Under the pieces are notes generated by a model. The model searched no databases and had not been told where the DNA came from. It was given only the letters and a program-made list of their open reading frames with translations. 64,000 nucleotides of DNA from positions 41,356,001 through 41,420,000 of the forward strand of contig NC_086108.1 in NCBI RefSeq assembly GCF_963921235.1, given 5' to 3'. This document shows positions 2,407 through 49,737 of the stretch, in pieces. Source of the stretch: Mobula hypostoma (Eukaryota). How positions within the stretch are numbered: the stretch's first letter is position 1; every line of letters begins with the position of its first letter. Both the position numbers and the translations under genes were made by a program.

Positions 2407-2590
2407 TCAATGCGCTGGAGGAACTCAGCAGGTCAGTCAGCATCAGTTGAAAAGATTAGTCGACGTTTCGGGCCGAAACCCTTCGTCAGGACTGAAGGAA
2501 GAACTTTGGGGAGGGTTTGAAGAATGCTGGTAGTTGAAAAAACCAGTAATTTGAAAGACAAAGGGGTGGGGGAGGGGAAGCAGGGAGGTG
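2407..2590 (-). mobile_element. Penelope-like element terminal fragment (hammerhead-containing end)
   Basis: Near-identical to 4262-4445, the end of the GIY-YIG-bearing element. Confidence 0.88.
2458..2493 (-). ncRNA. Minimal type-I hammerhead ribozyme
   Basis: Minus strand AGUC-CUGACGA-A-GGGU-UUCG-GCCC-GAAA-C-GUC-GACU: stem I AGUC/GACU, core CUGANGA and GAAA, stem II with UUCG loop, GUC cleavage triplet. Confidence 0.85.
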
Positions 2591-3984
2591 CCATAAACTA
2601 AAATCTTTTACCAATAGGAGTTTTTCTTCACTGATTCTGTTGATACTTTAGTTTGCAGTTGATTACGCCTTCATGATATTTCAGTTCAACAACTTGAGAG
2701 GCAGCAACCAATTCCACACTCCACGTGTATACCCCAAGGGCAGCTTTGTACTGACTTTACGATGTACTATATTTGTACCCTGAAGCATGCACACTTTAGA
2801 CTGAAATCTGTATTGCTGTAGGGCATTACCACTGTACACTAAATATAATTGCAAATTCTAACTCTCTCAAAGGTATCCTTTCTCATATCATTTCTTGTGA
2901 ATGTTCCTGGGATTTTAATAATTACAGACATGCACACATTTTGCATCTTGAAATCCAATACTTGTCCAGAAGCCAATATTTCTGTGATTCAAGATAGGAG
3001 CTGTTGCTAATCATTTAAAGAGAAAGGTTATTGTTTTACTGCAGTAATTATTGTTGCCTCTTTTTAATTTTTTGTTAGATTTCTCTGTTCTATTGCTTCC
3101 CATGTCAAAAAACATTTGCCTAATTACTTGAGCCTATAGTAGCTGTGAAGTAAGCAATGTCGCTGTAGATTGGATGAGTTGCATGTGAAACTCCCTCCAC
3201 CACCATCCATACTACTTGATCTTTTGTAGACTATCAGACTGATGTCACAGGGGATTGGCTTTGCAATGGAGATACATGGTAATTTGACCATTACATTATT
3301 AACCAATGACTTTCATTGGGAGATTGGTGCCATGGCAACACAGGCAGACAAAGTTTGCTAGCAAAGAGTGAAGGGGAGATTTTATTTCTGCTTTTAAGCC
3401 TCAATAAGCTTGTAGATAATGACTATGTGAGCTATCGTTTGGTAATTGGAGCAAATTAACAATGTCTTGTTTTCTGTAAACTGGGATATTTTAGTGGATA
3501 ACTAAAGTATTACAGGTCAATAGCCTGGTGATTATAATGTAAGTGATGACATTGCATATGCAGTATCTGTTCCTGTGTGGGCTGCCACCAGAAACTAGCG
3601 ACTGCAGAAGGTTTAGCTTCTTATAAGACACATGGTTCTTTAATGTTTTTCAGCTATTAAGTCAGCTCCTGATCATAGTCTTGCACTATATGGCCAACCT
3701 GAAAGACCTTCAGGAAATCAGCAGATAGGCAATAAAATATTGCCTCTTCATTGTTTTCCATTTCCAAAGACAGCAATCACAAAATAGTTAAAATATCTGA
3801 AAAGTTACAAGCTTGTAGTTGTGGGAAATGGAAAGCAATAGATACTGTATACTCAACAGGTCAGACAGCATCTCTAGAGAGGAAAACAGAATCAAAAATT
3901 CAGGTTGATGAATTTTCATCAGATCTGGAAAAGTCAGTGAACTAACTTGTTATACGCGGTAGAGAAGGGAAATGGTGAGTTAAA

Positions 3985-4245
3985 ATGTAAAGTTCAAAGT
4001 TCAAAAGTTCACGGTAAATTTACTATCAAAGTACATATATGTCACCATATACAACCCTGAGATGCATTTTTTTTTGCGAGCATACTCAATAAACCAATAG
4101 AATAATAACCATTCCGGAATCAATGGAAGTCCACACCAATTTGGGCATTTAACCAGTATGCAAAAGACAGAAAACTATGCAAATATAAAAAGTAAGAAAT
4201 AATAATAATAATAATAAATAAATACTGAGAACATGAAATGAAATC
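3985..4245 (-). mobile_element. Rex1/Babar-type LINE 3' UTR and tail, separated from its body (5385-6055) by the Penelope insertion
   Basis: (TTGAAC[T])n-type tail on minus strand; same 3' UTR family as 35700-35985 (+). Confidence 0.7.
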
Positions 4246-4312
4246 AGTCAAAGGAACACTCACAATGCGCTGGAGGAACTCAGCAGGTCGGTCAGCATCA
4301 GTTGAAAAGATT

Positions 4313-4348
4313 AGTCGACGTTTCTGGCCGAAACCCTTCGTCAGGACT
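4313..4348 (-). ncRNA. Minimal type-I hammerhead ribozyme (one stem II mismatch)
   Basis: Minus strand AGUC-CUGACGA-AGGGUUUCGGCCA-GAAAC-GUC-GACU. Confidence 0.75.
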
Positions 4349-4537
4349 GAAGGAAGAACTTTGGGGAGGGTTTGAAGAATGCTGGTAGTTGAAAAAAACA
4401 GTAATTTGAAAGACAAAGGGGTGGGGGAGGGGAAGCAGGGAGGTGATTGGCAGAAGAACAATGCGTAGTAGTAGAAGGAGGCGGAACTATGCGGGAGGTT
4501 ATGTGAAATAGGGGTAGAGTGAGGGGGGGGGAGGGAA

Positions 4538-47268: not shown

Positions 47269-47819
47269 ATTTTCTCATTCGTATTGCGTTTCTTAATTTC
47301 TCCAACAGTCAGAAGAGACTCTGGGGAAAACCTCCTCGAGTTTAGCTATCCATTAAAGTTTCCATCCTATATTTGCTGAACAAAACAGAACACAGGTTTT
47401 GATGTTAATAATGGGCCCACAACAGAACTATTTTGAACTAAGAGTGATGTCAAACAAGGCTGCATCATTGTCCCAGCTGTTGCAACTTACCATCTACAGA
47501 CCTCTCCCAGCGACTGGAGAATTTCTCCTGAGCCATTCAGAAACTAAGCCTACATTGACAGTATATTACAACCAAAATAATTACCAGCTTTAGTAATCAA
47601 GCTGTAATATGCAGGTGCCTTTGCAGTTTGTGCTCTGACACCAAGATCCAAGCTGATGTCAATATTTTCACTAAAGTATTTGAGAGTGTTACACTCAACA
47701 TCAGCAATATGAATGTTCTCAACAAAACTACCTCTTTTGAACCACTCTTCCCTTTAACATTAAAGGTGCATAATGTGGATTTCTTCCTTTGACTTGAGAA
47801 CTCTGAAGTCAGACGTCAA

Positions 47820-48340
47820 CAGTAAAATATACCACAATCTTAGTAATATAGTCTGTGTTCTGCACAAAATGAGGAAATGTTACTTCAAGGTGAAGACTCT
47901 AGAGTTAGCACAAAACTCATGGTCTGCTGAACAACTGTGATCCCTGTCCTCCAACATAAGACCAAAACAACCCATAGAAGGCATATCCAGGGTACTGGAA
48001 AAGTACCAGTACTGCTGTAAAATCTTCTATATTCACTGGAAAGACATGAGACCAACATTGGTATCCTGTCTCAACCAGTACTGATCCTCCATGTTACGTA
48101 GAATATATCATTTCCATGCCTGACACCAGTCTCAGAAAAAAGCCATGCAGTTCTGTTATAGAAAGGTATTAATCGCATGCAGGAGTAAGGATTCAAGGAT
48201 GTGCTGGAAACCTCCTTGAAGAAATGCAACATAATACCATTAGAAACCTCTAGCCATAACCATTCAAGGAAAAGCACTTGCGATGGTATTAATAAATTTG
48301 GTGCCATGCATTGGGAGCACAGAAGTCCTACGTAAGGAGT
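47820..48340 (+). mobile_element. Degenerate RTE (BovB-like) LINE C-terminal fragment
   Basis: GGATTCAAGGATGTGCTGGAAACCTCCTTGAAGAAATGCAACATA reads FKDVLETSLKKCNI; ATTCACTGGAAAGAC reads IHWKD. Confidence 0.6.
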
Positions 48341-48546
48341 ACAAAATGAGGTTACAATTCCTCAATTAAGTAAGTCTATTTTTTAGTCCAAGTTTTTCTT
48401 CAAGAGGTGTTTTTTTTCTAAACTCTCCTAATGAAGAAAATTTTCCTGTTCTATGAAAAATTTGGTAAAACTAAATATTTTAATTGTGTTTGTTTGGTAT
48501 TTTCATTCTATTTTAGAGAAAGAAGGGAGAGACTGAGAAAGTGGGT

Positions 48547-48637
48547 AACACACATACAATACTGGAGGAACTCAGCAGGCCTTAGTAGAAAGGAGTAAAC
48601 AGTCAACATTTTGGCAAGAGGCCCTTCATCAGGACTG
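48547..48637 (-). mobile_element. Short Penelope-derived element with 16-bp flanking duplication
   Basis: GACTGAGAAAGTGGGT at 48531-48546 and 48633-48648. Confidence 0.82.
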
Positions 48638-49538
48638 AGAAAGTGGGTGTTTGGAATAGTGAAAATTTTGATTTTGATTTTGAAATTGTTTTCTGAAATA
48701 ATAACAGTAAACGTAAATGTCTCAGTAAATGTTGTGTATCACGTATCTTTTACATTGGAATGACCAGCAAGATAAAAGGCTAAAACACGCATACAGATTG
48801 GTAGAATCCACTGTACAATCGGAGAAAATAGAAAATCTTGCTTTTATGTCCTTTGCAGGATATTGCAGACTAATTTACAACTAATGTAGCTTTGAAATAC
48901 ATCTTTTTTTTCAATGTGGGGAACATGGGAGCCAATTTTCACATGGCAAGCTCAAACAAAATGGTGAAAATGGGTAGTTAATTTTTCATTGTGACCACTG
49001 TCTCATTGAAATAGTGCCATTGGGTTGCTTGTCCATTTTAGCATTTCTTAGGGACAACACCTTCAACAAAGCAGCACTTCCTCTGCTTACAGCTGGACAC
49101 GGTCAGATTTTAAGGCTAGAAGTGGGACTAGCTCGTAGAGCTGCCTGCAACACTTGGGACAGCACTGTGAAGGAAATTCATTTTAAGGAGATACTGCTTA
49201 AGGCAACAAGACTAAGCCATTAATCTAGGGTTACATTTGCAATGCAATAAGATTTTGTGAAGGTAAATTATATAGATTACCTAGCCAAGACTTAGAGATA
49301 AACGGTCCCGAGTTCGAATTCGGCTGGCTCCTTCGACACTTTCCTTTTTATTTGTAATTCATTTTTTATTGAAGTTCATCATCAAACAAACATTTCCATG
49401 AGATATATTTCAGATACTGTACATATATATATCATATAGTCATATTTGTCACAAATCTCCACATAATATTTATCTGAGGTATACACATAGAAAGGAGAGG
49501 AAAGGAAGAACAATTGAAAGAAGAAAACTATGTACAAA

Positions 49539-49737
49539 AACAACAGGAATTCTGCAGATGCTGGAAATTCAAGCAACACACATCAAAGTTGCTGGTGAAC
49601 GCAGCAGGCCAAGCAGCATCTGTAGGAAGAGGTGCAGTCGACGTTTCAGGCCGAGACCCTTCGTCAGGACGTCTACTGCACCTCTTCCTACAGATGCTGC
49701 TTTGCCTGCTGCATTCACCAGCAACTTTGATGTGTGT
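49539..49737 (-). mobile_element. Fold-back Penelope-derived hammerhead element with 13-bp target duplication
   Basis: AACTATGTACAAA at 49526-49538 and 49738-49750; arms 49576-49642 and 49671-49737. Confidence 0.9.
49637..49670 (-). ncRNA. Minimal type-I hammerhead ribozyme
   Basis: Minus strand GUC-CUGACGA-AGGGUCUCGGCCU-GAAAC-GUC-GAC. Confidence 0.78.

What the first reader, a model, noticed from the sequence alone, without database searches (positions are those of the whole stretch)
2458..49670. Family of minimal hammerhead ribozymes carried by Penelope-like elements and their short derivatives
Seen: at 2458-2493, 4313-4348, 23316-23349, 33209-33244 and 49637-49670 the minus strand reads (A)GUC-CUGA[C/U]GA-A-GGGU-[U/C]UCG-GCC[C/U/A]-GAAA-C-GUC-GAC(U). 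Decayed copies lie near 24491, 26529, 34775, 40767, 41816, 47140, 48605 and 60125. Among the intact copies, variation falls at the tolerant core position (CUGANGA), the stem II loop and the last stem II base. Stem III is reduced to the palindrome ACGU. Established: Penelope-like elements carry minimal type-I hammerheads in their terminal repeats, and such motifs are proposed to cleave as dimers through the palindromic stem III. Inference: this genome has a high-copy ribozyme-bearing retroelement system, with both an autonomous-type partner (GIY-YIG ORF 4538-5385) and roughly 100-200 nt retrozyme/SINE-like passengers. The PLE-hammerhead link itself is known; whether this family is described I cannot tell.
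Basis: partly seen in the sequence, partly recalled or inferred. Interest (0 to 1): 0.8.

Follow-up and report, generated by a model that had tools for sequence, protein, structure and literature searches.

The report
Penelope-element hammerhead tails in ray DNA
The repeated short motif is really there and has the shape of a minimal self-cutting hammerhead RNA, but it sits in the truncated tail ends of a Penelope-like jumping gene, likely in a ray genome, which is an already described arrangement, and these scattered copies are likely inactive leftovers.

Summary
The five motifs are exact at the stated coordinates (0 of 100 shuffles), and all eight decayed copies are real; 17 loci in 64 kb carry this end. 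All are 3' ends of an endonuclease-bearing Penelope-like element (PLE) with a Neptune/Nematis-type linker; the closest proteins are from rays. PLE hallmarks are present: target-site duplications (TSDs), two 3' ends about 40 nt apart ('tail'), inverted 5' arms and nested 5' truncation. Two first-reader inferences fail. The GIY-YIG ORF is a 5'-truncated, RT-less remnant inside a LINE. The short copies are not retrozymes or SINEs: no tandem arrays, no Pol III boxes. Only 2 of 5 keep G10.1-C11.1. The ribozyme is conserved across subfamilies more than its flanks; cleavage is untested. One lead: six copies begin or invert at the ribozyme's 5' edge and none at the cut site, which suggests that uncut RNA is copied. 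The PLE-hammerhead link is known since 2014, and the scan noted it before in this genome and in other, shark-like genomes. New member of a known kind; low interest.

The parts
2408..2590 (-). Subfamily A short copy: 97 nt of pseudo-LTR + hammerhead + 3' end; no TSD found
   Evidence: 98.4% identical to 4263-4445; upstream reach -97; no TSD
2458..2493 (-). Minimal hammerhead, full core and G10.1-C11.1; predicted cut after C at 2462
4250..5366 (-). Subfamily A long copy: 5'-truncated PLE (RT thumb, linker Zn finger, GIY-YIG, pseudo-LTR, hammerhead, 3' end), inserted in a LINE 3' end
   Evidence: tblastn; 11-nt duplication with 1 mismatch at 5377-5367 and 4249-4239; the two flanks are adjacent in the uninterrupted paralog at 35601-35837
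4538..5368 (-). 276-codon open C-terminal part of the PLE polyprotein: CX3CxxC linker (aa 144-151), GVIY-CxxC-YIG, downstream H/H, R, E, N; no RT core
   Evidence: (GIY-YIG E=4e-4, below Pfam cut-off)
4313..4348 (-). Minimal hammerhead, core complete but G10.1-A11.1 mismatch
23217..23349 (-). Subfamily B short copy: begins at hammerhead position +2 (motif 23316-23349, G10.1-U11.1) and carries the tail
   Evidence: TSD 23364-23350 / 23217-23203, score 13; no pseudo-LTR upstream
33097..33582 (-). Subfamily B copy starting near the endonuclease stop codon; pseudo-LTR, hammerhead 33209-33244 (fully canonical; predicted cut between 33213 and 33212), tail
   Evidence: TSD 33596-33583 / 33096-33083, score 12
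49538..49737 (-). Subfamily B short copy (hammerhead 49637-49670, G10.1-U11.1) with an inverted 5' arm (49671-49737) joined at hammerhead position +2
   Evidence: TSD 49750-49738 / 49538-49526, 13 of 13; inverted arms 96%; junction
23568..24613 (+). Decayed PLE RT fragment (aa ~300-625 of P0008) joined directly to a decayed hammerhead and tail; thumb and endonuclease missing
26528..26618 (+). Subfamily C short copy starting at +3; A13 deleted
34674..34804 (-). Subfamily C short copy starting at +7, inside the core, with tail
   Evidence: 8-nt TSD is marginal (score 8, reached by 22 of 300 random pairs)
40625..40859 (+). Subfamily C copy, about 135 nt of pseudo-LTR + hammerhead (G12>A) + first 3' end
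41722..42850 (-). Subfamily C long copy: decayed thumb/endonuclease + pseudo-LTR + hammerhead (core kept, stem II broken)
47027..47266 (.). Head-to-head pair of decayed ends joined inside hammerhead stem II
48547..48636 (-). Subfamily C short copy starting in stem I (microhomology with the target), G12>A
   Evidence: 16 of 16 nt TSD 48648-48633 / 48546-48531
59733..59777 (+). Fragment of the 3' end only (starts about +50, downstream of the cut site)
   Evidence: (E=7e-9)
60039..61160 (-). Subfamily C long copy: decayed endonuclease interrupted by a ~220-nt insert, pseudo-LTR, partly deleted hammerhead, tail
1256..1289 (+). Tail-only fragment
   Evidence: E=2e-5
44527..44690 (.). Older subfamily D, head-to-head; stem I reads AGUU/AAUU instead of AGUC/GACU
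3851..3929 (-). Older subfamily D remnant
   Evidence: (E=7e-7)

Best explanation
The motifs are minimal hammerhead sequences inside the 3' ends of truncated copies of a Penelope-like retroelement, likely left behind when its reverse transcriptase copied uncut element RNA from the tail end and stopped early, so these solo copies are likely inactive. Shown here: shared 3' ends, nested 5' truncation from about 35 nt to 1.1 kb, TSDs, inverted 5' arms, the endonuclease motifs and no RT in the longest copies. Inferred from known PLE biology: a full-length source element elsewhere in the genome (pseudo-LTR, RT-EN ORF, pseudo-LTR) is transcribed. Its protein nicks the target and starts reverse transcription at one of two internal sites, about +86 to +99 and about +134 from the start of stem I. 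It runs through the hammerhead and stops at a variable point, often at the ribozyme's 5' edge. The ribozyme is likely kept by selection in source elements, where it would cut after GUC as a dimer or with protein help. Once inserted, copies decay, often at CpG.
For: Protein: 81% identity to a Hypanus protein that continues upstream into RT motifs. CX3CxxC linker and cysteines between GIY and YIG, the features that PMC8557442 gives for Neptune/Nematis and for PLE endonucleases. TSDs: 4 of 15 elements score 12-16, against a maximum of 11 in 300 random pairs; empty-site paralog for the 4.3k copy. Two 3' end classes: +86, +90, +99 versus +134, +134, +135 (and +148) among 7 copies measured, matching the optional 30-40 bp tail. 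Inverted 5' arms at 49.6k, 47.1k and 44.6k. Hammerhead identity between subfamilies A and B is 32-34 of 36, against 35-39 of 55 downstream and 20 of 40 upstream. In two DNA runs, the CpG at 11.1/12 shows C>U in 44% and 35% of summed depth but G12>A in 13% and 15%, like G16.2>A at 13% and 15%. None of 17 loci starts at the cut site (+33), in line with uncleaved RNA being the substrate in vitro for an anole PLE. A Stegostoma protein reads through the same motif downstream of the same ORF.
Against: No full-length copy or tandem arrangement lies in the window, and no genome is held, so the source element is inferred. Covariation is weak: 3 pairs have a change on both sides, one sequence each, and 16-88 of 500 shuffles reach the observed values. 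27 variant rows were hidden, so other core variants cannot be excluded; depth sums are not copy numbers, and the excess of U11.1 may be one inherited event. Nearest-neighbour energies do not favour the double hammerhead (-14.7 against -28.5 kcal/mol for another duplex). 11 of 15 elements show no TSD above chance. No RT phylogeny with named references was run.
Confidence: 0.85

Rival explanations
1. The ~135-nt copies are a self-propagating non-autonomous family (SINE- or retrozyme-like) that starts at the hammerhead and borrows the PLE protein.
For: 23.3k and 49.6k are 97.7% identical and both start at +2. Six copies start or invert at +2 to +18. Contig depth peaks over the ribozyme and tail. 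PLE-derived retrozymes are reported in one chondrichthyan.
Against: No tandem array with a period above 28 nt. No tRNA gene; no B box in 5 copies on either strand, and one loose A-box match. The 5' ends are staggered (+2, +2, +3, about +5, +7, +9 to +18), not fixed. The same subfamily B sequence continues about 340 nt upstream in 33.2k. The depth peak is also expected from 5' truncation and from the ribozyme being the part most alike among subfamilies.
Confidence: 0.1
2. The motif is kept for another job (protein binding, promoter or splice signal, RT landing structure) and no longer cleaves.
For: The monomer is predicted to fold with the core paired to CGUC, which is a non-catalytic fold. G10.1-U11.1 is common. 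Published PLE min-HHRs cleave poorly, and 8 of 9 Xenopus dimers did not cleave. No RNA ends at the cut site were found for the anole element.
Against: All catalytic-core letters are kept across subfamilies A, B and the C majority, while stems and loops change. The anole PLE motif cleaves when its protein is present. This rival concerns function only and is compatible with the PLE origin.
Confidence: 0.25
3. The 2.4k and 4.3k copies are the paired pseudo-LTRs of one unit that captured 1.7 kb of host DNA and would yield a doubly cut RNA.
For: 98.4% identity, same strand, 1855 nt apart. Capture between pLTRs is described in rotifers.
Against: The 4.3k copy has its own flanking duplication, and the interrupted LINE resumes directly after its 3' end. 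No duplication brackets the whole unit (one search tested each copy's own ends only).
Confidence: 0.05
4. Individual copies were domesticated as host regulatory ribozymes.
For: All 5 core-complete copies lie on one strand.
Against: 5 of 5 on one strand has a two-sided chance of about 0.06 even if independent, and the family lies on both strands. No host protein domain was found in 143 of 162 ORFs of 72 aa or more. Solo copies lack a partner for stem III.
Confidence: 0.02

Closest known systems
Minimal hammerheads (min-HHR) in pseudo-LTRs of metazoan PLEs (Cervera and De la Pena 2014, PMC4209133)
   Same: Type I; 4-5 bp stem I; one extra base between 9 and 10.1; palindromic 15.2-16.2 with no loop; mostly solo copies tied to truncated PLEs; nearby pairs on opposite strands; found in fish Xena, Poseidon and Neptune elements.
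   Different: Stem II is only 4 bp (7-8 bp in Schistosoma). U11.1 is common. Density is far above the 2,000-9,000 per genome reported there. No shark or ray terms in the 2 supplementary files searched (file 1 not searched).
Neptune/Nematis-type EN+ Penelope-like elements (Craig et al. 2021, PMC8557442)
   Same: C-terminal GIY-YIG with CCHH, CX2-5CxxC linker, 5' truncation, inverted 5' copy, 30-40 bp tail.
   Different: Clade not confirmed by RT phylogeny; no full-length copy in the window.
PAc, Poseidon element of Anolis (Frangieh et al. 2024, PMC11167929)
   Same: Two RT start sites that bracket the tail; hammerhead upstream of them; uncleaved RNA is the insertion substrate.
   Different: Poseidon lacks the linker Zn finger. 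In PAc the ORF starts in stem II; the ATG at N7 here is absent in C7 copies and is closed after 13 codons in 33.2k (sequence).
Non-LTR retrozymes (Cervera and De la Pena 2020, PMC7229834; Li et al., bioRxiv 10.64898/2026.07.22.740005)
   Same: Non-coding, hammerhead-bearing, related to PLE pseudo-LTRs.
   Different: Defined by tandem repeats, and in the 2020 paper by canonical hammerheads and circular RNA; here the copies are dispersed, solo and minimal.

Membership tests
PLE min-HHR | Core CUGANGA / GAAA / NUH complete | tested here: met
   5 exact copies plus 41.8k keep all core letters
PLE min-HHR | Stems I and II can pair; extra base between 9 and 10.1 | tested here: met
   81% of 96 cells paired against 17-47% for slid controls; extra A in all five
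PLE min-HHR | Conserved G10.1-C11.1 pair | tested here: inconclusive
   G-C in 2 of 5 core-complete copies, G-U in 2, G-A in 1; C>U in 35-44% of depth in DNA runs
PLE min-HHR | Palindromic 15.1-16.1 in place of stem III | tested here: met
   ACGU in all five
PLE min-HHR | Compensatory changes among families | tested here: inconclusive
   3 pairs, one sequence each, not clearly above shuffles
PLE min-HHR | Self-cleavage as dimer or with protein | not testable with these tools
   Energy models only
Rfam canonical hammerhead families | Match to a covariance model | tested here: not met
   No hammerhead hit at E<=1; expected for a motif without helix III (inference)
EN+ PLE, Neptune/Nematis type | C-terminal GIY-YIG with two Cys between GIY and YIG and two His after | tested here: met
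   GVIYCIRCSRCGLLYIGET, then EHL and THF
EN+ PLE, Neptune/Nematis type | CX2-5CxxC linker (absent in Penelope/Poseidon) | tested here: met
   CKRKCYTC; definition
EN+ PLE, Neptune/Nematis type | RT upstream in the same ORF | tested here: met
   Met in relatives (820-947 aa proteins with PF00078; P0036) and as a decayed fragment at 23568-24483; not in the 4.3k copy
EN+ PLE, Neptune/Nematis type | Optional 30-40 bp tail, inverted 5' copy, variable-length TSD | tested here: met
EN+ PLE, Neptune/Nematis type | RT phylogeny places it in Neptune | not tested
   No clade-labelled reference sequences were returned by the tools
Autonomous PLE copy (4.3k) | RT core and 5' pseudo-LTR present | tested here: not met
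   Only aa 627-898 of 904 align; the 5' flank is LINE DNA
Non-LTR retrozyme | Two or more tandem units, each with a hammerhead | tested here: not met
   10 tandem rows, longest period 28 nt; window only
Non-LTR retrozyme | Circular RNA | not testable with these tools
   Only contigs were available
tRNA-derived SINE | Pol III A and B boxes or tRNA head | tested here: not met
   0 tRNA genes; 0 B boxes in 5 copies on both strands (box consensus recalled)

The most novel reading that the evidence does not exclude
The 5' edge of the hammerhead is the 5' end of the element's RNA. The conserved pyrimidine tract + CAG|UCC fits both an Initiator and a 3' splice site (consensus recalled). The abundant ~100-135 nt copies would then be run-off cDNAs primed in the tail next to the transcript's 5' end, and the ribozyme's own stem I and ACGU palindrome would serve as snap-back primers that build the head-to-head inverted arms. 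Ray genomes, with likely 10^5-10^6 copies, would be a natural record showing that uncut RNA is the template and how PLE inversions form. Support: 6 firm 5' ends or junctions at +2 to +18, against 2 downstream (post hoc P 0.001-0.045 by count used); none at the cut site; opposite-strand joints landing on 33244, one through the stem I microhomology AGTC.
Probability: 0.25. Interest if true: 0.5.

Novelty: new member of a known kind. Interest (0 to 1): 0.2.

Why it matters
As it stands it is an ordinary member of a system described in 2014. It matters mainly for repeat annotation: about one copy per 3.8 kb here, and fragments of the ORF appear inside predicted host proteins. If the 5'-end clustering holds genome-wide, it would test two open points of PLE biology with existing assemblies: whether cut or uncut RNA is the template in vivo, and how head-to-head inverted arms arise, which PMC3846280 leaves open.

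Tried and rejected
No whole genome is held. Rfam gave no hammerhead hit. A pattern scan of metagenome contigs gave 0 matches. A viral contig scan gave 1 match, L001, which lacks stem I and the family's flanks and was rejected as unrelated. No PDB sequence relative of a full-length homolog. No RNA holder listed; X15 and X17 are only guessed to be RNA and were not used as evidence of expression. Loose ends at 33242-33244 rank highest on the 5' side, but their consensus begins like subfamily C's own upstream sequence and 1210 rows were hidden, so they do not show genome-wide 5'-end clustering. Fold z-scores of 11 motif and tail sequences were unremarkable (-1.69 to +0.51). The tail consensus structure has 16 pairs and 0 compensatory changes. 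Host exons: none found by Pfam in 143 of 162 ORFs of 72 aa or more; shorter exons were not tested. Lunse et al. on dimer cleavage was not held; only its title was seen, in a reference list. Literature searches for a description in sharks or rays listed none, but Repbase, Dfam and subscription papers were not searchable, so 'undescribed' is not shown. Sequence and place look-ups in earlier findings were empty.
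Full report
Observation. The five motifs are present letter for letter on the - strand at the stated places, and no shuffle of 100 gave a match. The eight decayed copies are all real. A profile from 14 seed copies found 20 hits at E<0.01, which make 17 loci in 64 kb, with 0 hits in the reversed window (the seeds match by construction). 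Numbering from the first base of stem I (+1 = 33244 in the 33.2k copy), the motif is AGUC, CUGANGA, an extra A, a 4-bp stem II with a tetraloop, GAA, the palindrome ACGU, C17 and GACU. The predicted cut lies between +32 and +33. Only 2 of the 5 keep G10.1-C11.1. Rfam's hammerhead models did not match.

What carries it. Every copy shares the sequence 3' of the motif, and the copies fall into subfamilies by that sequence: A (2.4k, 4.3k), B (23.3k, 33.2k, 49.6k), an older group C and remnants D. Three long copies (4.3k, 41.8k, 60.1k) continue upstream into the C-terminal part of a PLE polyprotein. The 276-codon open frame at 4538-5368 has a CX3CxxC linker and GVIY-CxxC-YIG with downstream histidines. 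PMC8557442 gives the linker as a mark of Neptune and Nematis, absent in Penelope/Poseidon. The best protein matches are from Hypanus and Mobula at 75-84% identity, and sharks follow at 60-66%, so the host is likely a myliobatiform ray (inference). The Hypanus match continues upstream into RT motifs, and a Stegostoma protein reads through the same hammerhead motif after the same ORF.

The ORF is not an autonomous partner. It aligns only to residues 627-898 of a 904-aa relative. Its two flanks align to adjacent parts of an uninterrupted LINE 3' end at 35601-35837, and an 11-nt duplication with one mismatch brackets it. It is a 5'-truncated insertion, and the upstream Met belongs to the LINE.

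The short copies are truncated ends. Four of 15 elements have TSDs scoring 12-16, above the maximum of 11 in 300 random pairs. One more is marginal, and the rest show none in that test. 3' ends fall at +86, +90, +99 or at +134, +134, +135, with one at +148 (7 measured). This is the optional 30-40 bp tail of PLEs, which in the anole element lies between two RT start sites. Inverted 5' arms occur at 49.6k, 47.1k and 44.6k. Lengths form a nested series from about 35 nt to 1.1 kb. There is no tandem array of the unit, no tRNA gene and no Pol III B box in 5 copies. So the retrozyme and SINE tests fail within this window.

Is the ribozyme under selection? Between subfamilies A and B the 36-nt motif is 32-34 of 36 identical, the next 55 nt 35-39 of 55, and the 40 nt upstream 20 of 40 for 33.2k against A. 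In two DNA runs laid at >=85% (94,010 and 80,047 contigs), 4 of the 40 variant rows shown lie in the motif. U7>C reaches 64% and 60% of depth, C11.1>U 44% and 35%, G12>A 13% and 15%, and G16.2>A 13% and 15%. C11.1 and G12 are one CpG. The change that keeps a G-U pair is about three times as common as the change at G12, a catalytic base (recalled). This fits selection in source elements. Against over-reading: 27 rows were hidden, depth is not copy number, and U11.1 may descend from one source. Covariation in the window is weak. The monomer is predicted to pair its core with CGUC, and the double-hammerhead fold scores -14.7 kcal/mol against -28.5 for another duplex (the model ignores tertiary contacts). 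Published activity of such motifs is low or needs protein.

Mechanism. Shown: anatomy, TSDs, two 3' ends, inversions, truncation. Inferred: a full-length source element is transcribed; its protein nicks the target and starts reverse transcription in the tail region; it copies through the uncut hammerhead and stops early. None of 17 loci begins at the cut site, as expected if cut RNA is not the template, and as reported in vitro for PAc. Cleavage, if any, would happen in the source RNA at another step. Solo copies lack a stem III partner and decay.

The one lead beyond the known. Six copies (23.3k, 26.5k, 34.7k, 47.1k, 48.6k, 49.6k) begin or invert at +2 to +18 and have only background similarity to pseudo-LTR upstream (47.1k judged from its junction). 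Two loci begin downstream (+50, about +100), and six extend upstream. The D remnants and the internally deleted 24.5k copy cannot be scored. A post hoc binomial test gave P = 0.045, 0.008 and 0.001 for 5, 7 and 9 against 2; the window was chosen after seeing the data. In one search, 2 of the 15 joints shown are strand switches, and both land on 33244; 45 joints were hidden. One of them passes through the AGTC microhomology of stem I, which is what a snap-back of the cDNA end would give. The loose-end table does not settle the point (see Tried and rejected). The sequence at +1 fits both an Initiator and a 3' splice site (consensus recalled); in D. virilis the intron ends at helix I, and the start site lies 46 bp before that intron.

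Comparison and novelty. It works like, and by every testable feature but one is, a PLE min-HHR of Cervera and De la Pena 2014; the G10.1-C11.1 pair is inconclusive. It is not a retrozyme or SINE by the tests run. Searches for a description in sharks or rays listed none, but Repbase and Dfam were out of reach, and a 2026 preprint reports PLE-derived hammerhead repeats in one chondrichthyan (its supplements were not seen and may name this family). Earlier notes of this scan record the same kind of repeat in this genome and in other, shark-like genomes; they are unchecked leads and did not set my reading, which was fixed before.

Papers seen. PMC4209133: parts 1-2 of 4 (results, discussion), and a term search in 2 supplementary files, file 1 not searched. 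PMC11167929: parts 1-2 of 4. bioRxiv 10.64898/2026.07.22.740005: parts 1-3 of 5 and passages. Passages only: PMC8557442, PMC2377424, PMC6765202, PMC6155905, PMC7229834, PMC3846280. Lunse et al.: title only. Hammerhead position numbers and subfamily labels A-D are mine, the numbering recalled.

Verdict. Observation confirmed; interpretation partly supported; new member of a known kind; interest 0.2.

Noticed in passing
window 23568-24490: A decayed PLE RT fragment is joined directly to the hammerhead end, with thumb and endonuclease missing.
   Followed up: partly
window 5367, 42850 and 24483: Two long copies begin, and the RT fragment ends, within a few codons of the same polyprotein position (aa ~625-627 of P0008). 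Possible breakpoint hotspot; unexplained.
   Followed up: no
window 60713-60935: A ~220-nt insert with inverted-repeat-like ends and an 8-nt flanking duplication (1 mismatch, read by eye) splits the GIY-YIG of the 60.1k copy; looks like a non-autonomous DNA transposon.
   Followed up: no
window 22772-23445: A palindromic MITE-like element with inverted arms hosts the 23.3k insertion.
   Followed up: no
window 26440-26527: An AT-rich hairpin directly before the 26.5k copy gives sub-threshold miRNA family hits; likely chance.
   Followed up: partly
window 33245-33265, 4349-4365, 41852-41870, 60150-60170: A pyrimidine tract ending in CAG precedes or overlaps stem I in all three subfamilies, like the intron end at helix I in D. 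virilis Penelope.
   Followed up: partly
window 11665-12099: A 145-aa Cys-rich ORF on the - strand with no Pfam hit; possibly a DNA transposon fragment.
   Followed up: no
window 122-535, 15722-17035, 31441-31957, 39383-39604: Decayed RT fragments of other retroelements, likely LINEs.
   Followed up: no
P0034, P0036, P0044, P0045: Pieces of this PLE ORF are included in predicted ray proteins that carry host-gene names; annotation artefact or exonisation.
   Followed up: no
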